Positions 1,480-41,375 are shown, counted from the stretch's first letter. The stretch: 64,000 nt of DNA from an uncultured Gammaproteobacteria bacterium (GCA_964345045.1 CAYFPM010000002.1:140330-204329); one strand, 5' to 3'. Notes: generated by a model from the sequence alone, not told the origin. Numbers and translations: made by a program.

Positions 1480-1490
1480 ATTTTTAGTGT

Positions 1491-1561
1491 GTAGGCAGGA
1501 GGCAACAGGTAGTAGAAAATAAAAAAATACTATTGCCTAAATTCTACTGCCTCCTGCCTAC
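1491..1561. repeat. intergenic palindromic element gtaggcaggaggca ... tgcctcctgcctac (family member a)
   Basis: Perfect 14-nt inverted repeat flanking an A/T spacer that contains tactattgcc. Related copies occur at 13346, 17741, 20744 and 36487. Confidence 0.6.
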
Positions 1562-8516: not shown

Positions 8517-9011
8517 TTACCGATTACACACGGCAGGATCACTAAAGTTACCATTGGCACAAGGGTTGTATTCTTCTGTGTCGGAGTAATGGAAAAAACC
8601 TTCTTCCGGCTCTCCTACAGATCTTCTAACCGTTCTATCTACAAATATCAATATAGAATAGGCACTAGCAGCTACCAAAACTCCAATCACAGCCGTACGC
8701 AAAGTCTTTTTGCCTTTTTCTACTTTTTGTTCGTCTCCACCAGAAGTTAAGATAAGATAACCGGCATACACAGTATAACCAATAAATAGAATTCCAATAA
8801 AACCAAGTAAGCGACGAATAATCTGGGCAGCAACCAATCTAGGATCTTCTGCTATGCCAAAATCGGCTCCTCTATTTCCAGCAAAGGCTCCGGTTTGTTG
8901 ATTCAAATCTTCGGCAAAGCTGGCCGCATTTACAAAATCCGAAGTTGCTAAAAAAAACAAACCAGCCAAAGCAAAGCTAAACAATAATATTTTTTTCTTT
9001 TTGCTAAACAT
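8517..9011 (-). CDS. pilin-like secreted protein, TrbC/VirB2-like two-helix core (paralog 1) with a short Cys-containing C-terminal tail
   Basis: Signal peptide. Core LLGFIGILFIGYTVYAGYLILTSGGDEQKVEKGKKTLRTAVIGVLVAASAYSI. Tail ends ...NPCANGNFSDPAVCNR. Confidence 0.6.
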   Translation of the reverse strand: MFSKKKKILLFSFALAGLFFLATSDFVNAASFAEDLNQQTGAFAGNRGADFGIAEDPRLVAAQIIRRLLGFIGILFIGYTVYAGYLILTSGGDEQKVEKGKKTLRTAVIGVLVAASAYSILIFVDRTVRRSVGEPEEGFFHYSDTEEYNPCANGNFSDPAVCNR

Positions 9012-9016
9012 AGTTA

Positions 9017-9460
9017 TTAGGGATTCGATCTATTTTGTTCCAAAGCTTCTCTCACGGCTTCTCTAGGATTTTGCTTTTGCAAAGAACCTTGCACCGCGCT
9101 ACTTATAAACCTAGTAATAGAGTAAGCCAAAAGAACTATAATAAGACCAATTATGGCTCCGCGTACAGTTTTGGTGGCTTTTTCTACCTTACTTTCGTCT
9201 CCACGAGAGGTAATATACCAATAGCCGGCCATAAGTACCAAAACTATAAAAAAAGTTCCTACAAAGCCAAGTAAGACTTGTACAATCTCGGCAATGATTA
9301 TCCTAGGGTCAGCCGCACCTCCAAAACCGGCTCTATTGGCTCCGGCTGTAATCTGACTACCGACTTGGCTACCCAAATCTCCTGCCATAGCTGGAGAAAA
9401 GAAAAACAAAGAAAGTGATAAAGAAAAAAACAAAACCAAAATCACTAATTTATTACGCAT
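9017..9460 (-). CDS. pilin-like secreted protein, TrbC/VirB2-like core (paralog 2)
   Basis: Signal peptide. Core LLGFVGTFFIVLVLMAGYWYITSRGDESKVEKATKTVRGAIIGLIIVLLAYSI. Confidence 0.6.
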   Translation of the reverse strand: MRNKLVILVLFFSLSLSLFFFSPAMAGDLGSQVGSQITAGANRAGFGGAADPRIIIAEIVQVLLGFVGTFFIVLVLMAGYWYITSRGDESKVEKATKTVRGAIIGLIIVLLAYSITRFISSAVQGSLQKQNPREAVREALEQNRSNP

Positions 9461-9462
9461 AC

Positions 9463-10188
9463 TTATAATCTAATCAAAGCTTGGTTATTGAAATTACAGG
9501 TCCAACCAACCCCTGGAGAATTACTCTGGCACCAAGTTCTACAACCAGAAGCGTCTTGAATATTGGTATTTGGTCTTTGGGTTCCTCCCCCAGTATTTCT
9601 CACCCATTCACAAACACCCGAAGTACTTTGCAAGATTTGACCATTAAACTCACAGTTCCAACCGGCTGCACTAACAGGATTCCCTACACACCAAGCCTGA
9701 CACTCGGCAGAGTTGGCAATTGGAGTGCTTGGGGTTTGGCTACCACTGCCTTGGGTGTTTACCCAACGACAACTACCACTACCACCAGCCGGAGAGCTAC
9801 TCCCCGTAGAACCACCACTAGCTCTATCTATTAGTCTAGGAACTACAAAAGAAGTAATGCTATAGGCTCCTACAGTAATTATAAGTCCAATTATCGCTGC
9901 TCTTATAATATTTTGAGCTTTGCTTATTTTGTCTTCTTCGCCTCTCGCAGTCATCCACATAAAACCAGCATATACCATAAGGATCATAAAGATTACCCCC
10001 ACAAAAGACAAGGCCGCTCGAACTATGTCTCCCAAAGTTTCGGCAAAACTAGTTTCTGTGGTGTTGGGGTCAAAACCAGCTTCTTTGGCTGCTTCTCTAG
10101 CCAGTCCAGTGCCCAAATCAATAGCCAAAGTGCTTTGTGGCAAAAATAATACCAAACCAAGCAAAACAAAAAGTAAAAACTTTTTCAT
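9463..10188 (-). CDS. pilin-like protein with a C-terminal tandem Cys-rich module (paralog 3)
   Basis: Core ALSFVGVIFMILMVYAGFMWMTARGEEDKISKAQNIIRAAIIGLIITVGAYSI. A C-terminal module of about 45 aa is repeated twice (CxWVxNTxG...CxxWCxxN...GWxCxFNxQ). Confidence 0.6.
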   Translation of the reverse strand: MKKFLLFVLLGLVLFLPQSTLAIDLGTGLAREAAKEAGFDPNTTETSFAETLGDIVRAALSFVGVIFMILMVYAGFMWMTARGEEDKISKAQNIIRAAIIGLIITVGAYSITSFVVPRLIDRASGGSTGSSSPAGGSGSCRWVNTQGSGSQTPSTPIANSAECQAWCVGNPVSAAGWNCEFNGQILQSTSGVCEWVRNTGGGTQRPNTNIQDASGCRTWCQSNSPGVGWTCNFNNQALIRL

Positions 10189-10321
10189 ACAAATAAATCA
10201 ATTCCCTTGCCCTGTTATTAATATTAAGGGCAAAGTATAAAATAAATATTTTTTAAACACTCATTAAATCTAATTCAATCCCTTTTCTGCGGAATCTTTA
10301 TAAATCAATGAAATCAGTGTT

Positions 10322-10360
10322 TAAAAAACCAAACCTGATTACAAGCATACACCAGGTTTA
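10322..10360 (-). terminator. intrinsic terminator after pilin paralog 4
   Basis: Minus-strand hairpin aaacctg...caggttt followed by a U-run (an A-run on the plus strand at 10323-10328). Confidence 0.55.
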
Positions 10361-10372
10361 GCCTGCCTATTA

Positions 10373-10744
10373 TTACGAACCACCTAATCTTCCAGTAACA
10401 AACACAGTGATTGCATAAGCTGATACTACTATAACCAGACCAATAATAGTACTGACTATAACTTTTTGCGCTTTTTGAACTTGTTCTTCGTTGCCACGAG
10501 CTGTCATCCAAAGATAACCTCCATAAACCATTAAGAGCAAAAATATAATACCCACCAGTGTAAGCGCTGCGTTTATAATTCTACCAGTAGCAGTTTCCAG
10601 ATCCCGAACATCGTCTACCCCGGCTCTACTACCAACATTTTCTAGTGGACTACCACCACCAAAAGCATCTTGTAGACCACCAGCCAAAGTCACACTAGGA
10701 AAAAGTAATAACGCAGTTAAAATTATTATTGAAAATTTTTTCAT
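10373..10744 (-). CDS. pilin-like secreted protein, TrbC/VirB2-like core (paralog 4)
   Basis: Start at MKKFSII. Core LTLVGIIFLLLMVYGGYLWMTARGNEEQVQKAQKVIVSTIIGLVIVVSAYAI. Confidence 0.6.
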   Translation of the reverse strand: MKKFSIIILTALLLFPSVTLAGGLQDAFGGGSPLENVGSRAGVDDVRDLETATGRIINAALTLVGIIFLLLMVYGGYLWMTARGNEEQVQKAQKVIVSTIIGLVIVVSAYAITVFVTGRLGGS

Positions 10745-10758
10745 ATAGCTTAATAATA

Positions 10759-11127
10759 TCAATTTGTAAGTCTACCGACAAATAGTGTAATAGCATAAGC
10801 CATTACTACCACAGCTGCCCCAATTATAGCAGCTATTACAGTTTTTTTACCCTTTTCTATTCTTTCTTCGCTACCTCTAGCTGTCATCCATATAAAACCA
10901 CCATAAATAGTAAGAATAAAGAAAAATAATCCTACAAGCGAAATCCCCGCACGTAGTCCATCGGCGACAATGTTTGTGACACTAGATCTTTCTACTCCAG
11001 CTCTCCCAGCTACGTTTTCGGTAAAACCAGTGGCATTATTTATTTTATAACCAGCCAAAACAATATTTGGCAGAAGCCAAAAAGCCAAGACTAAAGTATA
11101 AAACAAATGATTAACAATCTTGGGCAT
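10759..11127 (-). CDS. pilin-like secreted protein (paralog 5)
   Basis: Core ISLVGLFFFILTIYGGFIWMTARGSEERIEKGKKTVIAAIIGAAVVVMAYAI. Confidence 0.6.
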   Translation of the reverse strand: MPKIVNHLFYTLVLAFWLLPNIVLAGYKINNATGFTENVAGRAGVERSSVTNIVADGLRAGISLVGLFFFILTIYGGFIWMTARGSEERIEKGKKTVIAAIIGAAVVVMAYAITLFVGRLTN

Positions 11128-11129
11128 AA

Positions 11130-11693
11130 TTAATTACAATTGGAAGCCGATATATTTGGGTTCACAGTAGCTGTTAAGCCAGGACCTCCCTGACACAAAC
11201 TGCTAGCATTACTTGGAAAATAAGGACCTCTTACACATTGAACTGCTCCACCTGTAGCTCCAGTGGTACAAACCACACAACAACCAGCGTCTACCGCCGT
11301 AGTCCCAGCTCCAGGTGCTGGGGTTGTTGGTTGCGTAGCTGTACCTACACTTTGGAATACAAATCTGGTAATAGCATAAGAAGCAATCACCAAAATAAGA
11401 CCAATAATGGCAGCTGTCACCGTACTAAGTGCTTTTTTACTTATTTCTTCATTGCCTCTGGCTAGCATCCAACTAATACCCGCGTAGATCATAAGTATAA
11501 AAAACAGAACCCCGATTAGAGTAAGGCCAGCGCCAATTACATTTCCTACAATATCGGCTAGACTCCCCCTAGCTGTGGTATCTAGCCCAGATTCCTCTGC
11601 AGTTTGTTCCAATCCATAACCAGCCAAGGCCAAAGACGGAAAAGCTACAGCCAAACCAGCCAAGAAACCAAACAAATAATTTTTCTTTTTCAT
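11130..11693 (-). CDS. pilin-like protein with a Cys-rich C-terminal domain (paralog 6)
   Basis: Core LTLIGVLFFILMIYAGISWMLARGNEEISKKALSTVTAAIIGLILVIASYAI. Tail ...GCCVVCTTGATGGAVQCVRGPYFPSNASSLCQGG...SNCN. Confidence 0.6.
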   Translation of the reverse strand: MKKKNYLFGFLAGLAVAFPSLALAGYGLEQTAEESGLDTTARGSLADIVGNVIGAGLTLIGVLFFILMIYAGISWMLARGNEEISKKALSTVTAAIIGLILVIASYAITRFVFQSVGTATQPTTPAPGAGTTAVDAGCCVVCTTGATGGAVQCVRGPYFPSNASSLCQGGPGLTATVNPNISASNCN

Positions 11694-11704
11694 ATAATTA
11701 AAAA

Positions 11705-12319
11705 TTAAGAACCAGCGGCAATACAACAAACATTATTACGTCCTCCGGGACAAACACCTGTTTCTATAGTGGCCGGGTCACACGAATTTCTTTCCTGACA
11801 TCTATAATTAGGGTTAGTGTCACCAAAGGTAATTGTACAAAATGTTTGACATCTACCAGCAACACAAGCAGTCTGTGGACCACAGTCCGTATCGGCTGTA
11901 CAACTAGCCCCAGGAGCTCCAGCAGTAGCACCAGGTGCCCCACCAGAAGTAGTCCCTCCCTCGACTGTACCAAATACAAACCGAGTAATAGCATAAGCAG
12001 ACAATACTATAATAAGACCAACAATCGCAGAAACAATAATTTTTAGCCCTTTCATAGCTTGTTCATTGTTGCCATGAGAAGTCATCCAAGTAACTCCACC
12101 GTATATAGTAAGAATAAAAAATAGTACTCCTACAAAAGACAATGCTCCACCCAAAAATCTACCGGTAGCCGTAGGGATATCCCCAAATTTTTGCAAACCA
12201 GATCTACTAGAAACTAGTTCTAATCCATACTCATCGGCAGCCATAGTTGGAGGCAAAAACAAAAACATCCCTAGAAAAAAAGCCGACAAAAATGAAACTA
12301 TAAATATTTTTTTAGGCAT
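11705..12319 (-). CDS. pilin-like protein with a Cys-rich C-terminal domain (paralog 7)
   Basis: Core LSFVGVLFFILTIYGGVTWMTSHGNNEQAMKGLKIIVSAIVGLIIVLSAYAI. Tail has 10 or more Cys (CTADTDCGPQTACVAGRCQTFC...). Confidence 0.6.
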   Translation of the reverse strand: MPKKIFIVSFLSAFFLGMFLFLPPTMAADEYGLELVSSRSGLQKFGDIPTATGRFLGGALSFVGVLFFILTIYGGVTWMTSHGNNEQAMKGLKIIVSAIVGLIIVLSAYAITRFVFGTVEGGTTSGGAPGATAGAPGASCTADTDCGPQTACVAGRCQTFCTITFGDTNPNYRCQERNSCDPATIETGVCPGGRNNVCCIAAGS

Positions 12320-12329
12320 GGATCAAAAA

Positions 12330-12716
12330 TTATAGGGTATAACCAGTAGTTGCTCTATAAATATTGCTAAGAACAAAACTGGTTACTGCATAAGCGCTTA
12401 AAATTATAATAAGACCAATTACTGCTGCCCACAAAGTTTTTTTAGCTTTGGTGATACTTTCTTCGTTTCCTCCAGCAGTCATCCACATAAAACCGGCATA
12501 CAATATAACCCCCAAAGAGATGACTCCCAACAAACTAAGAAAAACTTGAATTATTGTGCCAACCGAATTTCTCAAATCACGATCTCCCAAACCACTAAAT
12601 TTGCCATATTCTGTGCCTAGCAAATCTGCTCCGGCCAAAACGGGATTTATTTGTAAAATAAAAAAACCGAAAGCTACAAAAGTTAAAAAAACTATGATTT
12701 GCTTGGTATTTTTCAT
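12330..12716 (-). CDS. pilin-like secreted protein (paralog 8)
   Basis: Start at MKNTKQIIVFL. Core FLSLLGVISLGVILYAGFMWMTAGGNEESITKAKKTLWAAVIGLIIILSAYAV. Confidence 0.55.
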   Translation of the reverse strand: MKNTKQIIVFLTFVAFGFFILQINPVLAGADLLGTEYGKFSGLGDRDLRNSVGTIIQVFLSLLGVISLGVILYAGFMWMTAGGNEESITKAKKTLWAAVIGLIIILSAYAVTSFVLSNIYRATTGYTL

Positions 12717-12824
12717 AAAGATTGATTTTGGTGCAAAAGAAACAAAAATTATCTCTTTAGCACCACCATCAAAATACAAAGGGCAGAGATCTCCACGTGG
12801 GGTTAGACCCCTGCCCAATGTAAG

Positions 12825-13244
12825 TTAGAATGTTACGGATTGTCCGGCACCTGCTGTAGTACCAGTGGCAATAGCCAACTGATTTAGCACGAAACGTGCA
12901 ATAGCAAAGGCACTCAAGATAATAGCCAAACCAATGATTCCAGCAAAGATTCTCTTGCGAGCTTCGGCAACTTTTTCTTCGTTACCACCAGCTGTCATCC
13001 ATTGAAAACCACCAGCCAAGATAATTACCAATGCAACGATACCCAAAAGGCTAAGTGCTACACGGATAATTTGACCGATAGTGTCACGGATATCTTGGTT
13101 TCCAAGTCCACTAGTTGTACCGTATTCTAGACCGAATACAGTAGCACCAGCGTGAGCAGAAGGAACTAGAAATACACCCATAAGAAGCACGGCAACAGCA
13201 ACCCAAGCGAGACGGTATTTGGCGACTGTGTTTATCCAATACAT
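12825..13244 (-). CDS. short pilin-like protein with a strong Shine-Dalgarno site, candidate major subunit (paralog 9)
   Basis: 139 aa. Core ALSLLGIVALVIILAGGFQWMTAGGNEEKVAEARKRIFAGIIGLAIILSAFAI. Upstream GGAGGTGAGACT-ATG is the strongest RBS in the cluster. Confidence 0.6.
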   Translation of the reverse strand: MYWINTVAKYRLAWVAVAVLLMGVFLVPSAHAGATVFGLEYGTTSGLGNQDIRDTIGQIIRVALSLLGIVALVIILAGGFQWMTAGGNEEKVAEARKRIFAGIIGLAIILSAFAIARFVLNQLAIATGTTAGAGQSVTF

Positions 13245-13345
13245 AGTCTCACCTCCCTTCCGTTATAAATGTTTTTATTCATATAGCAATAGTATACGTG
13301 AATAAGCCTAGTTTTACAAAATAGATGTGGACAGTGATATAGGGT

Positions 13346-13416
13346 TTAGGCAACAGGCATTAGTAACTAGAAAAACACTATTGCCTATTCCCTATTCCCT
13401 ATTGCCTGTTGCCTAA
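13346..13416. repeat. intergenic palindromic element ttaggcaacaggcat ... attgcctgttgcctaa (family member b)
   Basis: 15-nt inverted repeat. The centre contains tactattgcc and three cctattcc direct repeats. Confidence 0.55.
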
Positions 13417-14210
13417 CTACCAGTAAGCCCACGGATAACTGTATTCAAAATAGCATAGGCCGAAAATATAACAGCCAACCCGATTACCGCATAAAGCATG
13501 GTATTGGTTCCTTTTTTTACTCTTTCTGGATTTCCTGCCGAAGTAAGCCACATTACTCCCCCAGCAAAAAAGACTAACAAAGTAATAGATCCAATCACAG
13601 CCATAGCATTTCTAATCACATCGGCTACAATTACTCGCAAATCTGTTTTTTCTGGATCACTCCCCAAAGGATTTTTTAAACAAAAAACTCCCGGATCATC
13701 ACATCTGTCTTTGGTTGTCCCAGCTCCACCGGCACTCTCGGTTCCTTCTGCCAGAGTACAACCTAGTGAAAAATTAACAGATTGCCCGGCAGAACCAACG
13801 GAAACAGTCTGCGATATGCTAGATGTTTCACAGGTGTTAGCATCGAGACTTACAGAAGCAGCTACATTTGGGTTAGCCATAATAGCAGCCGGAGCGCCGG
13901 CTTGTTGGACTTGGCTACACCCAGCATCCTTGGCAGCAGCAAACGCCGAGGCAATAGTCTGATTTAGATCCAAACTAGATCCCAAAGCAGTGTTGTTGGT
14001 AAAGGCAGCATCATTACAAGCTGGAGTAGTGCTTTTTATACTAGTAACACAACGACAGACCTCGGCTGCCTGGGCTGGGTTTGGTGACAGAAGACTGGAA
14101 AAAAATATAGCCCCCAAAACAAATACAAATAAATTTATCTGTTTTATTGCCACCCTTTGGGTGATCAGCCGAAGGCTGGCTTTATTACTTTTTTGCTTTT
14201 TTGTTTTCAT
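13413..14210 (-). CDS. secreted Cys-containing protein with a C-terminal TrbC/VirB2-like pilin core (paralog 10, permuted domain order)
   Basis: Signal peptide, variable ectodomain, then VIRNAMAVIGSITLLVFFAGGVMWLTSAGNPERVKKGTNTMLYAVIGLAVIFSAYAI at the C-terminus. Confidence 0.55.
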   Translation of the reverse strand: MKTKKQKSNKASLRLITQRVAIKQINLFVFVLGAIFFSSLLSPNPAQAAEVCRCVTSIKSTTPACNDAAFTNNTALGSSLDLNQTIASAFAAAKDAGCSQVQQAGAPAAIMANPNVAASVSLDANTCETSSISQTVSVGSAGQSVNFSLGCTLAEGTESAGGAGTTKDRCDDPGVFCLKNPLGSDPEKTDLRVIVADVIRNAMAVIGSITLLVFFAGGVMWLTSAGNPERVKKGTNTMLYAVIGLAVIFSAYAILNTVIRGLTGS

Positions 14211-14219
14211 ACAATTAAC

Positions 14220-15071
14220 CTAAAATCTAAAGACTTCCTCTACACCCAAACTGTCTAATAAGAAATTAACTAATAGATAGGCACTTAGCGAAATCGTTAC
14301 CCCTATTATAGCAGCCACTAGAATTTGTTGCCCTTGTTTAAATTTTTCTGGGTTGCCAAAAGCAGTTACCATTGTAACACCACCATAAACAAACATAACA
14401 AAAGCCACCACTCCAAGTAAACTAAACACTCTGGCTGAATAATTTAAAACCAAAATAAGCAAATCATCTACATCACGACAAGTTCCACTAATAGCACAAG
14501 CCGGCAAAAGACTTCCATCTTCGGCTGTATAACCAGCACTAAGACTTGATTCCAATATGGTTATACAAACATTATCACTCCAACCACAAGCCGAGGATCT
14601 TTCACAAGTAGTAGAATCTCTAATATCTCTACAAATATTGCCATCTGCCAAAGAATAACAAGCATTGTTTACCCAAAAACAACTGCCTTGGTTGCCCCCA
14701 CTCTCACACTGTGATCTGTCTAGCTCCGGGCACTTTACAATAGTTTCTACAAATTTGTCTCTACATCTAATATGCCCTAGACAATCTATTTCTCTTTCTC
14801 TTATCAAATCACAAGTTTCAAAACCTTCTCTTCTGGATCTTATACAATTCTTTTTTACTTCTGTAGTTTTGCAAGGACTGGTTTGCTTTATACTACAACT
14901 GTTAACTCTAAATTCTGTATCATGTCCTCTTTTTATCTCTTCTATACAACACTGTGCCGCACTAGCACTATCTACCTGCAAAAAATAAGAAAAAAATAAA
15001 ACAAAAACAAATATGCCAAATCTGTTAAAACGTTTTAATGATTTCATGCTTTCATGATTTAATGATTTCAT
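14220..15071 (-). CDS. secreted Cys-rich protein with a C-terminal pilin core (paralog 11)
   Basis: About 20 Cys in the ectodomain. C-terminus VFSLLGVVAFVMFVYGGVTMVTAFGNPEKFKQGQQILVAAIIGVTISLSAYLLVNFLLD. Confidence 0.55.
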   Translation of the reverse strand: MKSLNHESMKSLKRFNRFGIFVFVLFFSYFLQVDSASAAQCCIEEIKRGHDTEFRVNSCSIKQTSPCKTTEVKKNCIRSRREGFETCDLIREREIDCLGHIRCRDKFVETIVKCPELDRSQCESGGNQGSCFWVNNACYSLADGNICRDIRDSTTCERSSACGWSDNVCITILESSLSAGYTAEDGSLLPACAISGTCRDVDDLLILVLNYSARVFSLLGVVAFVMFVYGGVTMVTAFGNPEKFKQGQQILVAAIIGVTISLSAYLLVNFLLDSLGVEEVFRF

Positions 15072-15083
15072 GTTTTAATATTT

Positions 15084-16196
15084 TTAAAATGGTCTAAAAA
15101 AATCTATTACACCAAAAGCGTCTAACAAGAAATTGACCAACAAGTAAGCGCTAAAAACTATTACCAAACCAACTACCGAAGCAACCAAGACATTAACCCC
15201 TTTTTTAAATTTTTCTGGATTACCAAAAGATGTAATCATAGTGATACCGCCTACCAAAAAACTAATAAAGGCAAGTAAACCAGCAAAACCAAACGCCCAA
15301 GTAGCATAACCAAGTTGCTGCTGCAAAATATCGTTCAAACTATCGCAAGTACCATCGTGACCACAAGGAGGAAAAGCTCCTGGTCTACTAAAATCTATAT
15401 TGCCCGACAAACCAGATTGGAGCAAGGTGTTGCATTTGCCAGTATCTTCATTCCACTTGCAAACTTTACTGCCAGCTCCACCATCACAAAGATCTTTGCT
15501 TCTCAATTTGAAACAGAGATCATTATTTTGTCTAGATTCACACTTGTTTTCAAAAACAAAACAAGAAGCCAAAGGACAGCTAGCAGCACTATGATCTAGG
15601 CAATTGATGGTTCCGCTTATCAAAACTTCATCTGAAAAACCTATAAAATATAGATATCTACCTCCATTTACCGCCGGGGTAGTGTATCTCACCCTAGAAT
15701 TACAACTTTGATTTGGAACTGAAACTGTTTTTTGTAATTTGTAAGAAACATTATCCAAAGTTTGTTTGTAAGCAAATCCAGCCACGTTATTTCGCCACCA
15801 GCCGGCAGTTTGAAAAACACCAGCCGAGCAGTAAGTAATTTCTTCGTTTACTAACCATTTCCCAGCACTATTAAATTCTATCCCCGTAGCCGTATTTAAT
15901 TCTTGCAATGCTCCAATAGTTTTTAGTTGATCATAACTAACGGTTTGGTCGTTTTGATCTACCAAAACACAAAAACTAAAATTAGGAATTGGTTCAAAAT
16001 TTGGATTACCGTTGTCATTGTTAGCTGCTACAAATACTGCATATCTTTTGCCACTGGGAGGAGTTGGGCAGTTAACATTGTAATCCGATTGAGCCAAGCT
16101 AGGAGAAGGAAATAAAAAGAAAATAAAAATCAAAAAAACCAGCTTGCTAAAATATTTTCTTATTTTTTGTTTTTTTAAATTTTTTGTTTTTAGCAT
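15084..16196 (-). CDS. secreted Cys-rich protein with a C-terminal pilin core (paralog 12)
   Basis: C-terminus FGFAGLLAFISFLVGGITMITSFGNPEKFKKGVNVLVASVVGLVIVFSAYLLVNFLLDAFG closely resembles paralog 11. Confidence 0.55.
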   Translation of the reverse strand: MLKTKNLKKQKIRKYFSKLVFLIFIFFLFPSPSLAQSDYNVNCPTPPSGKRYAVFVAANNDNGNPNFEPIPNFSFCVLVDQNDQTVSYDQLKTIGALQELNTATGIEFNSAGKWLVNEEITYCSAGVFQTAGWWRNNVAGFAYKQTLDNVSYKLQKTVSVPNQSCNSRVRYTTPAVNGGRYLYFIGFSDEVLISGTINCLDHSAASCPLASCFVFENKCESRQNNDLCFKLRSKDLCDGGAGSKVCKWNEDTGKCNTLLQSGLSGNIDFSRPGAFPPCGHDGTCDSLNDILQQQLGYATWAFGFAGLLAFISFLVGGITMITSFGNPEKFKKGVNVLVASVVGLVIVFSAYLLVNFLLDAFGVIDFFRPF

Positions 16197-17732: not shown

Positions 17733-17740
17733 AGCAAGGT

Positions 17741-17800
17741 ATTTAGAAAATAGGCAACAGGCAGGAGGCAATAGTATTTTTTTCAGTTTTACTATTGCCT
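17741..17800. repeat. intergenic palindromic element ggcaggaggcaatagta ... tactattgcctcctgcc (family member c)
   Basis: 17-nt perfect inverted repeat around a T-run. Bidirectional terminator-like. Confidence 0.6.
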
Positions 17801-23278: not shown

Positions 23279-23307
23279 TTGACAAAAAGTTAATTATAGA
23301 GTAAGAT
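23279..23307 (+). promoter_or_regulatory. sigma70-like promoter TTGACA-17-TAAGAT for Zn-ribbon gene A
   Basis: TTGACA at 23279-23284, a 17-nt spacer and TAAGAT at 23302-23307. Confidence 0.45.
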
Positions 23308-23326
23308 CTTACATCGATCTTTTTTT

Positions 23327-23394
23327 CACTATTGGGCACTATCTTTATCAAACTTTGGTAACGATTGTGCCCAATAGCGGATTAGGCAACCGCA
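23327..23394 (+). promoter_or_regulatory. conserved leader element A (dyad TTATCAAACTTTGGTAA plus gtgcccaa hairpin)
   Basis: About 62 of 66 nt are identical to the leader at 24836-24893. It lies between the promoter and the ATG. The dyad is at 23345-23361. An inverted repeat attgggcac/gtgcccaat flanks it. Confidence 0.45.
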
Positions 23395-23411
23395 ATTTTT
23401 AAGGAGACAGG

Positions 23412-23801
23412 ATGCAAGCTTGTTTGATTTGTGGGGCGAATACCCCCACCAGCGACGACTTCGAGAGAAACAACGACGACGACTTCGCACGTTTGCAAGT
23501 GTTCAACGGGAATGAACATCGATTCGTCGTGATCTGTGGTGGTTGCTGCGGGGCTCCGGAACCTGTCCTGCTGGGGGTGAACTTGACTGGCCCCGTGTCT
23601 ACAACCGGTTTCAAGATCAAAATCCCCGGGCAAATCCCCAGTCACACCAACATTGCATGGACGCTCGAAGACATCTTGCGCCGCATGATCCAAGGAGCCA
23701 GGGTCCCCGAGCTGACCGATGCGCACATCGCGAAGTTGCTCGAGGCCTTCGGGATCGCCCCCTCCCCCACCCAGCCCCATACTCTCCGTTGGCTGGCGTA
23801 A
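23412..23801 (+). CDS. small Zn-ribbon protein A (129 aa), GC-rich foreign-like gene
   Basis: Motifs CLIC...CGGCC. RBS AAGGAG 6 nt upstream of the ATG. GC-rich codon third positions. Paralog of the ORF at 24910. Confidence 0.5.
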   Translation: MQACLICGANTPTSDDFERNNDDDFARLQVFNGNEHRFVVICGGCCGAPEPVLLGVNLTGPVSTTGFKIKIPGQIPSHTNIAWTLEDILRRMIQGARVPELTDAHIAKLLEAFGIAPSPTQPHTLRWLA

Positions 23802-23919
23802 AGTAGCGGCCTGCTACAGCGGTAGCCCATATACGCACCAGAGTGCGGGCGTACCAAAGGTACCCTGCGCTCGCCCCTATCTCAATTCTTTTTAAAATTA
23901 AAAGTAATTGAAATAAACA

Positions 23920-23948
23920 AAATCCAACACTACGTTGGATTTTGTTTT
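23920..23948 (+). terminator. intrinsic terminator
   Basis: Hairpin atccaac-actac-gttggat followed by TTTGTTTT. Confidence 0.7.
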
Positions 23949-23979
23949 GCAAAAATTTTTGAACCAAAACTAAATACAC

Positions 23980-24008
23980 TTGACAACCCTGCCAGAAAAT
24001 GATAAACC
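23980..24008 (+). promoter_or_regulatory. putative promoter (TTGACA, weak -10)
   Basis: TTGACA at 23980-23985. Candidate -10 elements are GATAAA or TAAACC. Confidence 0.3.
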
Positions 24009-24039
24009 AAAACCAAGTTCACTCTGTAGGAGGAGTACT

Positions 24040-24600
24040 ATGAATAACTTGGAACTGGCCGACTTCGGCATCTCCGGGACCCCCGGCTTTGCCCAGATCG
24101 CCTTCCTCACAACACCCACCCCTACCCAGAACCTTCATGGCATGCTTCGAGCCTTTTTGGCACCAGAGGACGGACTCTGCGACAATCCCCGAGACCTTCA
24201 AGCCAAGATGCTTCGGCTCTCTCGAGACCTCGGCAGACACACCCTGATGGATGAGTGTACTCAAAATTGCTGGGGCAAGCTCTATTACGATAGACGTGTG
24301 AAAGAGCGCAACTTCAGACTATTGATGATTGTCTTCCCGGATCCACTGGTTGCCCTAGGGGTGGCCTTGGACGCCGCCAGCGAGGATCGCGGAGGACTAG
24401 GCAGAATGATAGTGCCCGACGAGGATGTCCGGGCGCAAACCACTGGACTCGATCGTAACAACTACAATTGGTCCAGACCCGAACGCACTGTCCGCCATCG
24501 AAAAGACGGTGCCACCTTCGTTTACCCAGGTGGCAAAAGGCTTCGAATCGACTGGCCCGAACGGCCACCGATGCGTACCCGCTGGCTCAGATCTTTGTAG
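24040..24600 (+). CDS. hypothetical protein (186 aa), GC-rich island gene
   Basis: AGGAGG is 7 nt upstream of the ATG. Translation MNNLELADFGISGTPGF... . No family recognised. Confidence 0.45.
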   Translation: MNNLELADFGISGTPGFAQIAFLTTPTPTQNLHGMLRAFLAPEDGLCDNPRDLQAKMLRLSRDLGRHTLMDECTQNCWGKLYYDRRVKERNFRLLMIVFPDPLVALGVALDAASEDRGGLGRMIVPDEDVRAQTTGLDRNNYNWSRPERTVRHRKDGATFVYPGGKRLRIDWPERPPMRTRWLRSL

Positions 24601-24689
24601 GTAGCCACCGCGCTACCAACCCTAGCGACGAGTTACCCCCTCGTCCTCCCATTCCAATTCTTTTTAGCTTTAGAAATAATTGGACTGTA

Positions 24690-24723
24690 CAAAAACCGAC
24701 TGTGTAAGTCGGTTTTTGTTTTG
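24690..24723 (+). terminator. intrinsic terminator
   Basis: Hairpin aaaccgact-gtgta-agtcggttt followed by TTGTTTTG. Confidence 0.7.
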
Positions 24724-24755
24724 TAAAAATAGTTCTACTAACTTTGGCAAAACAC

Positions 24756-24784
24756 TTGACAAAAACCAAACAATTCTATAACCT
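24756..24784 (+). promoter_or_regulatory. sigma70-like promoter (TTGACA ... TATAAC)
   Basis: TTGACA at 24756-24761. TATAAC at 24777-24782 (15-nt spacer) or TAACCT (17-nt spacer). Confidence 0.45.
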
Positions 24785-24835
24785 AAGTCGTTGTTCTTTG
24801 TAGGAGAAATGCTCAGCATTTATTTCGCCGTTTGA

Positions 24836-24893
24836 CACTGTCTTTATCAAGCTTTGGTAAAGATTGTGCCCAACAGCGGACTTGGCACCCGCA
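24836..24893 (+). promoter_or_regulatory. conserved leader element B (dyad TTATCAAGCTTTGGTAA plus gtgcc/ggcac hairpin)
   Basis: Paralogous to leader A. The dyad is at 24844-24860. A hairpin GTGCC-N13-GGCAC follows. Confidence 0.45.
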
Positions 24894-24909
24894 TCGACCC
24901 GAGGTAATC

Positions 24910-25242
24910 GTGAAAACTTGCATCGTCTGTAATACCCAAACCGTGAAAACCAGTGGCAGTGGATGTGCAGATCCAAGGCTGGAAATCTACAACGGAGGAA
25001 CCGAAGTGTCTCGGTGCATCTGCCCCAAGTGCTGCCAGGCTCGCGAGCCCATCGTGCTCACGGTCTCAAGCTCTGGAGAAGTCGCCCAGCAGCGCATCGG
25101 CAGTGAGACCAACACCGTAAACCGCCTGCCGCTCGCTCAGGTTCTCGCCGCTCTCCAACAAGCAGAGCACATCCACCTCACCGGCAATGAGGTCGCCCAG
25201 ATCACCCGTCACTTCAACGCCCCTCTAGCAGCTGCCAGCTAG
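24910..25242 (+). CDS. small Zn-ribbon protein B (110 aa), paralog of A
   Basis: GTG start after GAGGT. Motifs CIVC...CICPKCC. A shared C-terminal pattern (LT..E.A.I...F) with protein A. Confidence 0.45.
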   Translation: MKTCIVCNTQTVKTSGSGCADPRLEIYNGGTEVSRCICPKCCQAREPIVLTVSSSGEVAQQRIGSETNTVNRLPLAQVLAALQQAEHIHLTGNEVAQITRHFNAPLAAAS

Positions 25243-25352
25243 ATGAGCAACGAACAGAGCGGTGGATACAGCCATACAACTTGGCTCACTCCACCGCTCG
25301 ATCCCAAAAAAGTTATAAATTAAAAAACCGGCTTAGACCGATTTTTTTGTTT

Positions 25353-25685
25353 TTATTTGGCTGTAAAAATTGCCAAGAAAAAAGCAAACAGAAACGAAAG
25401 AATATATGCTGCTACAAAGTTAAGCCAATGAGTTTTTAAAAATTGCGAATTGAAAATAATAAGCACCACGCTAAACAAAATAGCTGCCAAAGCTCCGTAG
25501 ATTCCCCCGATAAGGAATTCTTTGGCCATGGCTTTGTTTTGCATAGTTACCAAAACATAAGAGACTGCAAACACAATTGGAATCCCTCCAATAGCACCGG
25601 CCAAACGTGGTCCAGAGTATTTGGCAATTAGCAAAATAATAGCTGTAACTGCCGCCGAAGCCAAACTTTTTAAAACAATATCCAT
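25353..25685 (-). CDS. small integral membrane protein (about 4 TM helices)
   Basis: 110 aa and hydrophobic throughout. AT-rich native composition inside the GC-rich neighbourhood. Confidence 0.5.
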   Translation of the reverse strand: MDIVLKSLASAAVTAIILLIAKYSGPRLAGAIGGIPIVFAVSYVLVTMQNKAMAKEFLIGGIYGALAAILFSVVLIIFNSQFLKTHWLNFVAAYILSFLFAFFLAIFTAK

Positions 25686-25686
25686 A

Positions 25687-26160
25687 TTAACTCAAAACAT
25701 CATTAATTAAATTATCTACCATTTGTTCTGCTTTTTGCTGCAATTCTTCGTGGCTTAGCACCACCCCTTGATTTTTTAGTTCTGCTATTTGTTCGCGCAC
25801 CAGATCTTCTCGCATTTTTATTATTTCTTCTCTGTATTCGGCAATCTGTTTTTTTAATTCTGCTACCTTGGTTTTGTCCCTAGCTACAGAGGCATCTTCG
25901 CCATCTTCAACCAGTTGCAACTGTTGCCTAATTTTTTTTATAGCTGCCGTTACTTGCTGAATATGTAACAAAATATTCTGCATTTGTTTTTGGCTAGATT
26001 TTATTTCTTTGGTTAGGTAGTCTGCTCTTTCCATGGCAGCAGCTTTTTTCAATTCTGGATCTACTTCGGCTTCTTTGCTTTCTTTTTGTTCTACCCCAAC
26101 TTCGCGCGCTTCTAGCGAACGACGTCTCAGTTCTCGTTCTCTTTCTTTTTCAAAAGACAT
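25687..26160 (-). CDS. coiled-coil protein (157 aa), E/K/Q-rich
   Basis: Heptad-like sequence. No family recognised. Confidence 0.45.
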   Translation of the reverse strand: MSFEKERERELRRRSLEAREVGVEQKESKEAEVDPELKKAAAMERADYLTKEIKSSQKQMQNILLHIQQVTAAIKKIRQQLQLVEDGEDASVARDKTKVAELKKQIAEYREEIIKMREDLVREQIAELKNQGVVLSHEELQQKAEQMVDNLINDVLS

Positions 26161-26273
26161 AGTGGAAGAAGTAAGTTTTAAATTATAAGAAATAAGATTT
26201 GACTATTATATAACATTAAGAAAAGCAAGCCAAAGCCATAACCTTGACTTTTACTTACTTTTGATATAGGTTT

Positions 26274-26714
26274 ATGAACGTGAACGGAGATACCGCCCGC
26301 CGGTTTGTGTGGGCAATCAACCATTCTTGCATGATTCACATGCATTTTTTCGGAGGGGAAGAATATCTTTCGCTGACGAAGTCGCCAGGAGGTATGACTT
26401 ACACAGCCAAACTCGACGACGGCAAGCCCCTCCTGACCATCGAAGGTCACTGGGATGACACCAAAAATGGAGAACACGACTTGAGTGGAGTGTACAAAGC
26501 CAACCTCACTAGCGAAAGGAGCGGCACCCGATTTGTAACATTGTGGGGGTGTACTAACTACACTTTCGTGAATAGTTACCCAGCAAGACTGGAAGGACAC
26601 CCCTTAAAGCGAGGGAAAACTATGACCGCATGGGATTACCTGGCTAGATTTGGCTACCCCCTCGACGTATGCCCCAAAAAAGCCCGTCGAGACAATTCAA
26701 AAACAGCTTTGTAG
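26274..26714 (+). CDS. hypothetical protein (146 aa), GC-rich gene with a leaderless start
   Basis: TTGACT ... TATAGG lies immediately upstream of the ATG. GC-rich codon usage. A terminator follows. Confidence 0.45.
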   Translation: MNVNGDTARRFVWAINHSCMIHMHFFGGEEYLSLTKSPGGMTYTAKLDDGKPLLTIEGHWDDTKNGEHDLSGVYKANLTSERSGTRFVTLWGCTNYTFVNSYPARLEGHPLKRGKTMTAWDYLARFGYPLDVCPKKARRDNSKTAL

Positions 26715-26732
26715 AAAAGCTGTTTTTGTTTT
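26700..26732 (+). terminator. intrinsic terminator
   Basis: Hairpin aacagcttt-gtaga-aaagctgtt followed by TTTGTTTT. The stop codon lies within the loop. Confidence 0.7.
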
Positions 26733-35392: not shown

Positions 35393-35459
35393 AAAAACAC
35401 TAAACCAATAGTGTTTTTATGATTTTATGATTTAATGTTTTCTTGTTTTAATGATTAAA

Positions 35460-36179
35460 TCATTTCAGCCAAAGATTATCTACTACCTGACCAACAGCAT
35501 AACCAACCACAGCAGCCAACCCTGCCAAAGTTACCATCTCCATACCAGCTTTGATCCAATTCCTCTTGGAGAATTTGGCGGTGTATACTCCTAGCAAAAA
35601 CAAACCAACCAAAGTAATAGCAATAGACAAAGCAATCGCTGTATAAATAGGAAAGATAAAATAAGCTACAAGTGGAATCGCCCCGCCAAAAATATAAGAA
35701 ATCCCCATAACAGATCCGTTTTTTAACGGCTCTTCCAATTCACTTGGGAAAATTTTCAATTCATGATAAGCCATTTCTTGCAAAAACAAATCCGGTTTTT
35801 GCGAAGCTTCTTCGGCCATTTTCTTGGACAAATCTTTTGACCAACCATCTTCTTCGTACATCTCTATTAATTCTTGTTTTTCCTCTTCTGGATATTTTTC
35901 TAATTCTTGTTTTTCTTCAAACAATTTCCTCTCGTCTACTGCTCGCACCGACTTGCTAGACAAGTACGACCCCACTCCCATAGAAATTGATTCTACCGAA
36001 ACTACAACCAATCCTACCAAGATAGTGGTAAAAGGATCCTGTGTTGCAGCGGCTACACCAGTAATGGCCCCAAGGGTAGACACCATACCATCTTCCATCC
36101 CAAAGACCAATTCCCGTATAGTAGAAGCCTTGGTACTGTTGGTGTGGTGGATGTACTCTGGGTTATGCTCTACAGGCAT
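35460..36179 (-). CDS. VIT1/CCC1-family iron/manganese transporter
   Basis: Motif ELVFGMEDGMVSTLGAITGVA. Central acidic loop and C-terminal TM helices. Confidence 0.65.
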   Translation of the reverse strand: MPVEHNPEYIHHTNSTKASTIRELVFGMEDGMVSTLGAITGVAAATQDPFTTILVGLVVVSVESISMGVGSYLSSKSVRAVDERKLFEEKQELEKYPEEEKQELIEMYEEDGWSKDLSKKMAEEASQKPDLFLQEMAYHELKIFPSELEEPLKNGSVMGISYIFGGAIPLVAYFIFPIYTAIALSIAITLVGLFLLGVYTAKFSKRNWIKAGMEMVTLAGLAAVVGYAVGQVVDNLWLK

Positions 36180-41068: not shown

Positions 41069-41371
41069 TCAAGTTGGTTGATCGTAGCGACACGAGAAGG
41101 TGGAAACCCCAACACTCTCGAATGAGATGTCCTGCCCTTTCTCGAAAATCAAGGACTCGAACACGCAAGCTCTTGTCCAGACCTTCTTATCTTTCTCTTC
41201 TCCCGTAGTGAGCTTGCCATTTTCGACGGTGATCTGCACCCGCCTCTCGGCCGGTCCCAGGTTATGTACACCAGGCCTTACAGTTACCGAAGCAAACCTT
41301 CTTCCGGCTTGATCGAGATAAGAGGTGATGAAAACACCCTCATCTTCGTTTGTAAAATGTTCGATAGTCAT
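41069..41371 (-). CDS. small hypothetical protein (101 aa), tandem paralog 1, GC-rich
   Basis: Starts 5 nt after the stop of paralog 2. Shared motif ITVENGKLTTGE...FEKGQDISF. GC-rich codons. Confidence 0.45.
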   Translation of the reverse strand: MTIEHFTNEDEGVFITSYLDQAGRRFASVTVRPGVHNLGPAERRVQITVENGKLTTGEEKDKKVWTRACVFESLIFEKGQDISFESVGVSTFSCRYDQPT

Positions 41372-41375
41372 TCTT

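What the first reader, a model, noticed from the sequence alone, without database searches (positions are those of the whole stretch)
23279..25310. GC-rich, foreign-codon-usage island carrying two paralogous Zn-ribbon mini-proteins, each with its own promoter, conserved leader and terminator
The window is uniformly AT-rich with AT-ending codons, except for this block (and 26270-26714), where codon third positions are mostly G/C. Estimated by eye, GC content is well above 50 percent against roughly mid-30s around it. It holds three plus-strand genes, each with a recognisable TTGACA-type promoter and a strong intrinsic terminator (23920, 24690). Genes 23412-23801 and 24910-25242 are diverged paralogs. 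Both have an N-terminal CxxC, a central C..CC, and a similar C-terminal helical pattern. Neither they nor the 186-aa protein between them match any family I recognise. Native AT-rich genes (25353-26160) are interleaved, so this is not a simple contig chimera. This looks like a horizontally acquired cassette system that has not been ameliorated. One possible origin is a high-GC host, if this is an episymbiotic CPR organism.
Basis: partly seen in the sequence, partly recalled or inferred. Interest (0 to 1): 0.85.

Follow-up and report, generated by a model that had tools for sequence, protein, structure and literature searches.

The report
GC-rich orphan mini-genes, self-contained units
An AT-rich candidate-phyla-radiation (Magasanikbacteria-like) genome carries four small, GC-rich protein genes with no relatives in any database searched; each appears to have its own promoter and terminator, they sit between housekeeping genes that are adjacent in related genomes, and comparable genes in relatives suggest the GC-richness may be a maintained property rather than a fresh import.

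Summary
Units A (23412-23801), B (24040-24600) and C (24910-25242) are 57-59% GC (GC3 0.63-0.72), and D (26274-26714) is 50% GC, in a 38% GC window whose native genes have GC3 of 0.19-0.33. Contigs from four samples are identical across the island, so misassembly is unlikely. A and C are true protein paralogs: their similarity is frame-specific. They share an 83%-identical 5'-UTR hairpin. A and B share a 3' hairpin-plus-terminator module. The coding bodies fold no better than shuffled controls and match no Rfam family, so they look like mRNAs, not structured RNAs. In 29 related genomes the order is S6-SSB-S18-n157-p595 with short gaps. D and n110+C+B+A occupy two of those gaps, so they are insertions. 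No homolog was found in about 5.8 billion protein clusters, 1.8 billion representatives, profile libraries, PDB sequences, phages, plasmids or IMG/VR. No donor, integrase, attC site or DGR was found. Only the transcribed bodies are GC-rich; promoters and terminators are host-like. Relatives carry analogous GC-rich orphan units; two orthologous sets diverge fast yet keep high GC3 between conserved AT-rich flanks. The best description is chromosomal, moron-like accessory transcription units. Their function is unknown. The 'un-ameliorated transfer from a high-GC host' reading is only partly supported.

The parts
23279..23307 (+). Unit A promoter-like site (TTGACA-17-TAAGAT)
   Evidence: Consensus scan, 10 of 12 matches.
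23329..23377 (+). Unit A 5'-UTR long imperfect hairpin, followed by a short GCGG/CCGC hairpin at 23378-23393
   Evidence: Fold z = -5.6. The CM scores 109 bits. Consensus fold with unit C.
23412..23801 (+). Gene A, 129 aa. Cys-rich (CxxC...CxxCC), zinc-ribbon-like N-terminal half plus two predicted C-terminal helices. Orphan.
   Evidence: SD AGGAG; GC3 0.72. Frame-specific paralogy with C. AF2 pLDDT 54 overall, 70-77 at the Cys knuckles and one helix. No homologs.
23802..23880 (+). Unit A GC-rich 3'-UTR tail, with a stable hairpin at 23841-23872
   Evidence: Fold. Composition C .34, G .28.
23882..23955 (+). Unit A 3' module: AT-rich CAATT...AATTG hairpin (23882-23911), then an intrinsic terminator (23915-23947) and T-tract
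   Evidence: Fold. Terminator scan. 75% identical over 76 nt to unit B's module, E = 5e-10.
23980..24008 (+). Unit B promoter-like site (TTGACA, extended -10-like TGATAAACC)
   Evidence: Read from the sequence. It does not pass the strict scan.
24040..24600 (+). Gene B, 186 aa, orphan
   Evidence: SD GGAGGAG. Stop-free run P = 0.005 against shuffles. Only a self-hit in 5.8 billion clusters. AF2 pLDDT 35. CDS fold z = -1.6.
24601..24727 (+). Unit B C-rich 3' tail (C = 0.47), AT hairpin 24650-24687, terminator 24689-24719 and T-tract
   Evidence: Fold z = -7.4. Composition. Homologous to unit A's module (family D17).
24756..24782 (+). Unit C promoter-like site (TTGACA-15-TATAAC)
   Evidence: Read from the sequence. 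The spacing is sub-optimal and it is not listed by the scan.
24809..24835 (+). Mini upstream ORF (MLSIYFAV*) in unit C's leader, ending inside the left arm of the hairpin. Absent from unit A.
   Evidence: Read from the sequence. Not conserved in the paralog, so of doubtful significance.
24824..24880 (+). Unit C 5'-UTR long hairpin, homologous to unit A's, followed by a short GCGG/CCGC hairpin
   Evidence: 96.8 bits; one compensatory A-U/G-C pair and one G-U change.
24910..25242 (+). Gene C, 110 aa, GTG start; a diverged paralog of A
   Evidence: GC3 0.67. Not called in the full-length public contig. CDS fold z = +0.4.
25257..25348 (+). Unit C GC-rich 3' hairpin (25257-25299) and a weak terminator (25329-25340 plus T-tract), lying tail-to-tail with n110
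   Evidence: Fold z = -4.9.
25353..25685 (-). n110: AT-rich small membrane-like protein directly downstream of n157; also absent from relatives
   Evidence: No tblastn hit in 29 related loci. No Pfam match.
25687..26160 (-). n157: native conserved coiled-coil-like gene. It is a backbone marker, not part of the insertion.
   Evidence: 40-57% identical homologs next to S18 in at least 12 related loci.
26274..26714 (+). Gene D, 146 aa, orphan, moderately GC-rich, inserted between S18 and n157
   Evidence: GC 0.50, GC3 0.56. Stop-free run P = 0.007. Only a self-hit. CDS fold z = -1.8.
26698..26728 (+). Unit D intrinsic terminator, overlapping the stop codon
   Evidence: Terminator scan. Fold z = -4.2.

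Best explanation
The island is a set of four lineage-specific, protein-coding accessory genes. Each is built as its own monocistronic transcription unit:
- a sigma-70-like promoter;
- a Shine-Dalgarno sequence (not evident for D, which may be leaderless);
- a GC-rich ORF;
- in A-C, a GC/C-rich structured 3' tail;
- an intrinsic terminator.

The units are inserted, antiparallel to their neighbours, into two intergenic junctions of a conserved backbone (S6-SSB-S18 | n157 | p595-pilin) in a Ca. Magasanikbacteria-like CPR genome.

Shown:
- the anomalous composition;
- insertion relative to relatives;
- sequence identity across independent assemblies;
- frame-specific A/C paralogy;
- the shared 5' hairpin (A, C) and shared 3' module (A, B);
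- the absence of any detectable homolog.

Inferred:
- A and C are small zinc-ribbon-like proteins, possibly nucleic-acid-binding. Their expression is probably controlled post-transcriptionally through the conserved 5'-UTR hairpin, perhaps by their own products.
- The units arose by reuse or duplication of a common regulatory scaffold around different coding bodies.
- The GC-richness of the transcribed bodies is a maintained property of this gene class, not a passing trace of recent import. One candidate cause is selection for nuclease-resistant, long-lived mRNA, which would fit a 5' hairpin, a GC-rich body and 3' hairpins. The other is a GC-biased recombination process.
- Fast divergence of comparable genes in relatives suggests a role in conflict or interaction with a host, phage or competitor. 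The biochemical function is unknown.
For: Composition and codon-position GC.

Coding rather than RNA:
- SD sequences;
- frame-specific A/C similarity;
- ORF-length tests for B (P = .005) and D (P = .007);
- CDS fold z-scores of -0.3, -1.6, +0.4 and -1.8. A genuinely structured GC-rich block in L016 gives z = -6.3 with the same test;
- no Rfam match.

Autonomous units: promoter and terminator features.

Shared scaffold: leader 83% over 75 nt; 3' module 75% over 76 nt; homologous A>B and B>C junctions.

Insertion: synteny in 29 loci.

Real sequence: contigs from four samples are 100% identical apart from one mismatch at a contig end.

A recurring class in relatives:
- L011 has a 360-aa GC3 = .875 lipoprotein gene with its own promoter, SD, C-rich tail, CAATT hairpin and terminator at the same S18|n157 junction.
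- More such genes occur in L010, L016, L028, L029, L025, L013, L008 and L032.

Maintained GC with fast evolution:
- L028g/L029g are 49% aa identical, against a median of roughly 92% for 23 shared genes, yet have GC3 of .81/.77.
- L028h/L029/L025 orthologs keep GC3 of .59/.63/.64.
- Flanking leader DNA is 87-100% identical.
Against: - There is no expression or proteomic evidence.
- Promoters B, C and D are weak matches, and region-wide promoter and terminator counts are not above chance.
- ORF-length tests for A (P = .07) and C (P = .17) are not significant alone.
- The leader structure rests on two sequences, with one compensatory pair.
- Structure models are of low confidence and the fold search gave nothing, so 'zinc ribbon' rests on the Cys pattern.
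- The maintained-GC argument comes from analogous genes in other genomes, not from A-D themselves. No close relative of this genome was available.
- The amino-acid composition (Lys-poor, with B also Arg-rich) would also fit an origin in a GC-rich genome.
Confidence: 0.6

Rival explanations
1. Recent horizontal transfer of a gene block from a high-GC donor (a host bacterium or its phage), not yet ameliorated.
For: - Anomalous GC and GC3.
- GC-type amino-acid usage: Lys-poor in A-C, with B also Arg-rich.
- GC2 of .46-.50 with GC3 lower than expected for such GC2, which could mean partial amelioration.
- Insertion relative to relatives.
Against: - No homolog in any collection, including about 5.8 billion protein clusters and 1.84 billion representatives, phages and plasmids and IMG/VR.
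- Spacers, promoters and terminators between the GC-rich bodies are 26-33% GC and host-like, so the block was not imported whole.
- A and C are saturated paralogs that both keep high GC3 behind an 83%-conserved AT-leaning leader.
- Analogous genes in relatives keep their GC3 across speciation.
- No integrase, tRNA or flanking repeats.
Confidence: 0.22
2. The GC-rich blocks are structured non-coding RNAs, as GC-rich islands in AT-rich genomes often are, and the ORFs are accidental.
For: - GC-rich, promoter-to-terminator units in an AT-rich genome.
- Gene callers disagree on strand and presence.
- Many overlapping ORFs on both strands.
- The UTR elements are strongly structured.
- A truly structured GC-rich block exists at the same junction in L016.
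Against: - No Rfam match, even at E <= 10.
- The bodies fold no better than shuffles.
- A/C similarity is specific to one reading frame and spans 115 codons, with conserved Cys motifs.
- SD sequences are correctly spaced.
- GC3 > GC1 > GC2 periodicity.
- ORF-length tests for B and D.
Confidence: 0.04
3. Assembly chimera: reads from a GC-rich organism were joined into an AT-rich CPR contig.
For: - Sharp compositional switches.
- In three of four samples no contig crosses the island, and contig ends cluster inside it.
- One mismatch at a contig end, at 24155.
Against: - ENA and Logan contigs from four samples are 100% identical to the window (one mismatch) and tile every GC/AT junction.
- The Logan contig 23748-24749 spans GC-AT-GC-AT.
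- The AT-rich spacers carry the promoters, SDs and terminators that fit the GC-rich ORFs.
- The same architecture occurs in unrelated MAGs.
Confidence: 0.02
4. The units are targets or products of a localized diversification mechanism: cassette or allelic replacement by recombination in conserved flanks with GC-biased gene conversion, or targeted hypermutation. Such a mechanism would make the bodies both GC-rich and hypervariable.
For: - Conserved flanks with hyper-divergent GC-rich bodies in L028/L029. Within L028h the most GC-rich 120 nt is the most variable, at 60-65% against 82-95%.
- A/C leader 83% identical against 29% protein identity.
- Different GC-rich genes at the same S18|n157 junction in the window and in L011.
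- Contig breaks clustered in the island.
Against: - No reverse transcriptase or TR/VR repeats, and no adenine-specific substitution spectrum.
- No sequence variants of the island among four samples, apart from one base.
- Heteroduplex-based gene conversion should not operate on 60%-identical cores.
- No recombinase nearby.
Confidence: 0.12

Closest known systems
Phage 'morons' (Hendrix-type autonomous gene units in lambdoid prophages); comparison from established knowledge
   Same: A single ORF flanked by its own sigma-70-type promoter and factor-independent terminator. It is inserted between two genes that are adjacent in related genomes, and its nucleotide composition differs from its neighbours. 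All four traits are seen here.
   Different: - There is no phage context: the neighbours are ribosomal-protein, SSB and pilus genes, and there are no PHROG hits.
- The composition anomaly is confined to the transcribed body, while promoter and terminator are host-like.
- The units share regulatory modules with each other.
- Analogous genes keep their anomalous GC over evolutionary time.
Integron gene cassettes
   Same: A tandem series of small, unrelated, often orphan ORFs with odd composition, and hairpin-forming DNA between the ORFs.
   Different: - Cassettes are promoterless and end in attC sites recognised by an IntI integrase.
- Here each unit has a promoter-like site and a terminator.
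- The hairpins are not a shared attC family.
- No integrase lies within +/-10 kb.
GC-rich structured non-coding RNAs in AT-rich genomes (the usual explanation for such islands)
   Same: Discrete GC-rich blocks bounded by a promoter and a terminator.
   Different: The bodies lack excess folding energy, match no Rfam family, and show frame-specific protein conservation.
Small zinc-finger translational regulators that bind a hairpin in an mRNA leader (e.g. phage Mu Com acting on mom mRNA); recalled from knowledge, a lead only
   Same: A and C are small Cys4-type proteins whose own mRNAs carry a conserved 5'-UTR hairpin about 30-35 nt upstream of the start codon.
   Different: There is no sequence or structural similarity to Com or to any zinc-ribbon family. 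Binding is purely hypothetical.

Membership tests
Phage moron | Own promoter and own factor-independent terminator around a single ORF | tested here: met
   TTGACA hexamers at 23279, 23980 and 24756. Terminator hairpins at 23915-23947, 24689-24719 and 26698-26728. These are predictions only.
Phage moron | Lies between genes that are adjacent in related genomes; composition differs from neighbours | tested here: met
   Synteny in 29 loci. GC3 of .56-.72 against .19-.33.
Phage moron | Resides in a phage or prophage genome | tested here: not met
   No phage genes within +/-10 kb. No significant PHROG hit (best E = 0.13, for D). No phage or IMG/VR relatives.
Integron gene cassette | attC recombination site 3' of a promoterless ORF | tested here: not met
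   The 3' hairpins of A, B and C are not one family apart from the A/B AT hairpin-plus-terminator module. The units carry promoter-like sites.
Integron gene cassette | Adjacent IntI-type tyrosine recombinase and attI | tested here: not met
   Precomputed Pfam for all genes within +/-10 kb shows no integrase.
Classical horizontally acquired genomic island | Atypical composition and absence from relatives | tested here: met
Classical horizontally acquired genomic island | Identifiable donor homologs; tRNA, integrase or direct-repeat boundaries | tested here: not met
   No homologs anywhere. The nearest tRNAs are at 5.7 kb and 51 kb. No flanking repeats.
Structured non-coding RNA | Match to a curated family, or folding energy well below shuffled controls | tested here: not met
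   No Rfam match. CDS z-scores of -0.3, -1.6, +0.4 and -1.8.
Diversity-generating retroelement target | Template/variable repeat pair, reverse transcriptase, adenine-specific differences | tested here: not met
   No TR/VR-type repeats in the window. The substitution spectrum in the hypervariable relatives is not A-specific. No RT within +/-10 kb.
Zinc-ribbon proteins (A, C) | Two Cys knuckles (CxxC ... CxxC) on beta-hairpins | tested here: inconclusive
   CxxC and CxxCC are conserved between A and C. AF2 places strands around them with pLDDT 70-77 locally but 54 overall. No Pfam or PDB family match.
Cis-regulatory leader RNA (A, C) | Conserved secondary structure supported by covariation | tested here: inconclusive
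   Same hairpin in both copies, with one compensatory pair, one G-U change, and G-U pairs valid only on the + strand. Only two sequences exist; the CM finds no further copies.

The most novel reading that the evidence does not exclude
Magasanikbacteria-type CPR genomes carry a previously undescribed class of genes with these traits:
- small, orphan and autonomously transcribed;
- a transcribed body (CDS plus 3' tail) kept GC- and C-rich inside conserved AT-rich regulatory scaffolds;
- protein divergence faster than most of the rest of the genome;
- turnover at recurrent intergenic hot spots, such as the S18|n157 junction.

The GC-richness would then be functional or mechanistic, not a relic of transfer. 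It could reflect ultra-stable mRNAs, or a GC-biased diversification or recombination process.
Probability: 0.3. Interest if true: 0.75.

Novelty: new variant of a known kind. Interest (0 to 1): 0.5.

Why it matters
CPR bacteria have tiny genomes and are thought to live as symbionts, and most of their lineage-specific genes are uncharacterised. This locus shows orphan genes that are strongly anomalous in composition yet wired with host-type expression signals. They sit in hot spots within otherwise conserved synteny.

If the GC-richness is maintained, as the relatives suggest, it challenges the routine practice of reading compositional islands as recent transfers. It would also point to selection on mRNA properties, or to a biased diversification process, in accessory genes that may act in conflict or interaction with other organisms.

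There is a practical point too. Standard gene callers mis-annotate these units: they took the antisense ORF for A and missed C in the full-length contig. Such genes are therefore probably under-counted in CPR pangenomes.

Tried and rejected
- **Rfam.** Gathering and E <= 10 searches gave nothing in the island. Related loci gave only tRNAs.
- **Leader motif scans.** Scans of IMG/VR and JGI metagenomes returned only chance hits inside unrelated coding sequences: a viral structural-like gene and a PPR-repeat protein.
- **Leader covariance model.** It found no further copies in the window or in 29 loci.
- **Profile libraries.** Pfam, PHROGs, PADLOC, NCBIfam and PDB sequences gave no significant hits for A-D.
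- **Exhaustive HMMER search with an A+C profile.** It returned only four long repetitive proteins with 7-16 matched stretches each, judged compositional artefacts.
- **Structure prediction.** AF2 gave pLDDT 35 for B and 54 for A. Foldseek against PDB was meaningless, with best E = 2.6.
- **Possible A/C relative in L010.** It has a CxxC motif and a similar C-terminal motif, but the match is not significant (E = 0.046 over 34 aa; no phmmer or hmmsearch hit). I did not claim homology.
- **DGR hypothesis.** Rejected.
- **SD-sequestering helix.** It appears in unit A's fold but not in the A/C consensus.
- **Shared non-coding scaffold between the window and relatives at the insertion junctions.** None found.
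- **Presence/absence or alternative-cassette polymorphism among four samples.** None found.
- **Literature.** Searches for the project accession and for the phenomenon found nothing relevant.
Full report
**Observation**

The window averages 38.2% GC. Between 23.38 and 25.35 kb there are three blocks where 200-nt windows reach 0.605-0.65 GC. A fourth, weaker block at 26.28-26.70 kb reaches 0.53. These are the highest values in the window.

The blocks coincide with four plus-strand ORFs:

| Unit | Coordinates | Length | GC1/GC2/GC3 |
|---|---|---|---|
| A | 23412-23801 | 129 aa | .56/.46/.72 |
| B | 24040-24600 | 186 aa | .60/.47/.63 |
| C | 24910-25242 | 110 aa (GTG start) | .60/.50/.67 |
| D | 26274-26714 | 146 aa | .48/.46/.56 |

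Six native neighbours have GC3 of .19-.33. Third positions in A-C are dominated by C (.41-.48).

The DNA between the GC-rich bodies is only 26-33% GC. This is the DNA that holds the promoters, Shine-Dalgarno sequences, AT hairpins and terminators.

Stretches at 41.0-41.7, 51.7-52.7 and 62.4-63.2 kb reach 0.53-0.56 GC.

**Is the sequence real?**

An ENA MEGAHIT contig and Logan contigs are 100% identical to the window, apart from one mismatch at a contig end (24155). They come from four sequencing runs of one project. Together they tile every GC/AT junction.

In three of the four samples no contig crosses the whole island, and contig ends cluster inside it. This could mean coverage dips or micro-heterogeneity. 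No alternative sequence and no empty site was recovered.

**Coding or RNA?**

No Rfam family matches, even at E <= 10.

The four coding bodies fold no better than dinucleotide shuffles, with z = -0.27, -1.62, +0.41 and -1.83. The same test gives z = -6.3 for a genuinely structured GC-rich block in a related genome (L016).

A and C align at 29% identity over 115 residues, E = 1e-9. The similarity is frame-specific: 37 bits in the proposed frames against at most 20 bits in the other 35 frame pairs. CxxC and CxxCC motifs are conserved.

B and D have stop-free runs that are unlikely by chance, P = .005 and .007. A, B and C start 6-8 nt after AGGAG, GGAGGAG and GAGG.

The antisense 132-aa ORF that public pipelines called over A has the GC1-high signature of a shadow ORF. 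I conclude these are protein-coding mRNAs on the plus strand.

**Anatomy of the units**

- **Promoters.** Each of A, B and C has a perfect TTGACA hexamer (23279, 23980, 24756). Only A's promoter passes a strict consensus scan.
- **Leader.** A and C share a leader that is 83% identical over 75 nt. It forms a 49-57-nt imperfect hairpin followed by a short GCGG/CCGC hairpin.
  - It has one compensatory pair (A-U to G-C), one G-U change, and G-U pairs that work only in the plus-strand RNA.
  - That favours an RNA-level element. With only two copies the evidence is thin, and a covariance model finds no others.
- **3' ends.** After each stop codon in A-C comes 50-80 nt of GC- or C-rich, hairpin-forming tail. 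In A and B this is followed by an AT-rich CAATT...AATTG hairpin and a strong terminator.
  - This 3' module is 75% identical between A and B.
  - The A>B and B>C junctions are homologous.
- **Overall.** Unrelated coding bodies sit in related regulatory scaffolds.

**Context and evolution**

A scan with the adjacent S6 protein retrieved 29 loci, mostly Candidatus Magasanikbacteria MAGs, with at most 63% S6 identity over a partial match and about 48% over the full length. Their conserved order is S6-SSB-S18-n157-p595-p207. The S18|n157 gaps are mostly 108-277 nt, and the n157|p595 gaps mostly 56-249 nt.

In the window, D occupies the first gap. The second gap holds n110 plus C, B and A. None of A, B, C, D or n110 has a tblastn match in any relative, and no non-coding scaffold is shared.

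No homolog of A-D exists in:
- about 5.8 billion protein clusters;
- 1.84 billion representatives searched exhaustively with an A+C profile;
- Pfam, PHROGs, PADLOC and NCBIfam;
- PDB sequences, searched with the A+C profile only;
- phage and plasmid records (D was not searched against plasmids);
- IMG/VR.

No integrase, tRNA boundary, attC-like family, reverse transcriptase or TR/VR repeat is present.

**A recurring class**

Related genomes contain analogous units.

- **L011.** At the same S18|n157 junction it has a 1,680-nt gap at 56% GC, against a 44% background. The gap holds a 360-aa lipoprotein-like ORF (GC3 .875) with its own TTGACA promoter, GGAGG SD, C-rich tail, CAATT...ATTG hairpin and terminator.
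- **Other loci.** High-GC3 small ORFs occur in L010, L016, L028, L029, L025, L013, L008 and L032. They have no detectable similarity to A-D or to one another beyond two ortholog sets, and none matches Rfam.
- **The close pair L028/L029.** Native genes are about 88-90% identical in DNA.
  - The GC-rich gene L028g is only 49% identical in protein, against a median of roughly 92% for 23 shared genes.
  - Its leader is 87-100% identical and its 3' flank 83-90% identical.
  - Both copies keep GC3 of .81/.77.
- **A second GC-rich gene.** It keeps GC3 of .59/.63/.64 in L028, L029 and the more distant L025, at 76% and 50% identity.
- **Turnover.** L028g is absent from L025.

High GC3 therefore persists through substantial divergence, which is not what neutral amelioration predicts.

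**Interpretation**

The best-supported description is a cluster of chromosomal, moron-like accessory transcription units that encode orphan proteins.

The 'un-ameliorated import from a high-GC host' part lacks a donor. It also conflicts with the host-like spacers, with the saturated yet still GC-rich A/C pair, and with the maintained GC of analogous genes.

Why the bodies are GC-rich is unresolved. I favour selection at the mRNA level, because a 5' hairpin, a GC-rich body and stable 3' hairpins all fit a nuclease-resistant message. A GC-biased recombination or diversification process at hot spots is the alternative. The Lys-poor composition (with B also Arg-rich) keeps an ultimately foreign or GC-biased origin open.

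Function is unknown. A and C look like small Cys4 zinc-ribbon proteins with two C-terminal helices (AF2 pLDDT 54 overall, 70-77 locally). They may regulate themselves through the shared leader hairpin. This is inference, not shown.

**Verdict**

- The feature is real, and it is not an artefact or a known RNA.
- Novelty: a new variant of a known kind. The units resemble phage morons and acquired islets, but they sit in a CPR chromosome and may keep their anomalous composition over time.
- Interest is moderate (0.5). It would be higher if the lineage-wide class of maintained GC-rich, fast-evolving mini-genes is confirmed.

Noticed in passing
window 23382-23780 (-) and 24910-25242 (+): In the full-length public contig, gene calls take the antisense shadow ORF (132 aa) instead of gene A and call nothing for gene C. 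Such units are probably mis-annotated routinely.
   Followed up: yes
L011 9601-10940: A related MAG (JACKFN010000004) carries a 360-aa GC3 = 0.875 lipoprotein-like orphan gene at the same S18|n157 junction where D sits. It has its own promoter, SD, C-rich tail, CAATT hairpin and terminator.
   Followed up: yes
L028 2137-3055, L029 2222-3150, L025 2642-3058: Two tandem GC-rich small genes diverge faster than most neighbouring genes but keep high GC3, with near-identical AT-rich leaders. Within L028h the most GC-rich 120 nt is the most variable. L028g is absent from L025.
   Followed up: yes
L016 11380-11760: A ~380-nt GC-rich block lies directly downstream of S18. It folds far better than shuffles (z = -6.3 on +, -6.9 on -), has no convincing ORF and no Rfam match, and is followed by a terminator-like hairpin on the + strand. 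It may be an undescribed structured RNA.
   Followed up: partly
window 24809-24835: A mini upstream ORF (MLSIYFAV*) with a GGAG SD sits in unit C's leader, and its stop codon lies in the left arm of the leader hairpin. It is not present in unit A.
   Followed up: partly
window 41069-41681 (-): A second pair of adjacent small ORFs (107 and 101 aa) at ~53% GC has no Pfam match. By eye they share a '...TV.NG.L..GE...' motif, so they may be another pair of GC-enriched orphan paralogs.
   Followed up: partly
window 62550-63242 (-): A GC-enriched (GC3 0.61) 230-aa gene belongs to DUF3865, a haem-oxygenase-like family (Pfam E = 8e-39). It appears to have its own 3' hairpin and terminator.
   Followed up: partly
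window 51487-51613 (+) and 51717-52649 (+): A SAM-I/IV riboswitch (45.6 bits) sits upstream of a 310-aa, ~53% GC ORF. By eye the ORF resembles SAM hydrolase/DUF62-type proteins; this was not tested.
   Followed up: no
window 8683-14387 (-): An array of about eight paralogous genes, seen as 86-nt and 74-nt repeat families at 60-79% identity. It corresponds to the T4SS_pilin-type membrane proteins seen in the precomputed Pfam hits.
   Followed up: no
window 15020-15095 and 35401-35476: Two short arrays of an 8-nt tandem unit (TTTCATGA/TTTAATGA-like), about 20 kb apart.
   Followed up: no
window 1487-1559, 13342-13407, 17739-17773: A dispersed repeat with an 'AGGCAACAGG...CTATTGCCT' core. It may be a REP-like or terminator-associated element.
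   Followed up: no
window 23748-26623 (contig ends in L002, L036-L048): In independent assemblies of four samples, contig ends cluster inside the island, with a single mismatch at 24155. This hints at a coverage dip or micro-heterogeneity at the GC-rich units.
   Followed up: partly
L011 9440-9575: A large inverted repeat (AAGCAG-AAAAATATTCATCAAAAA ... TTTTTTGATGGATATTTTTTT-GTCTTGCTGCTT) encloses a smaller hairpin, just upstream of the GC-rich gene's promoter.
   Followed up: no
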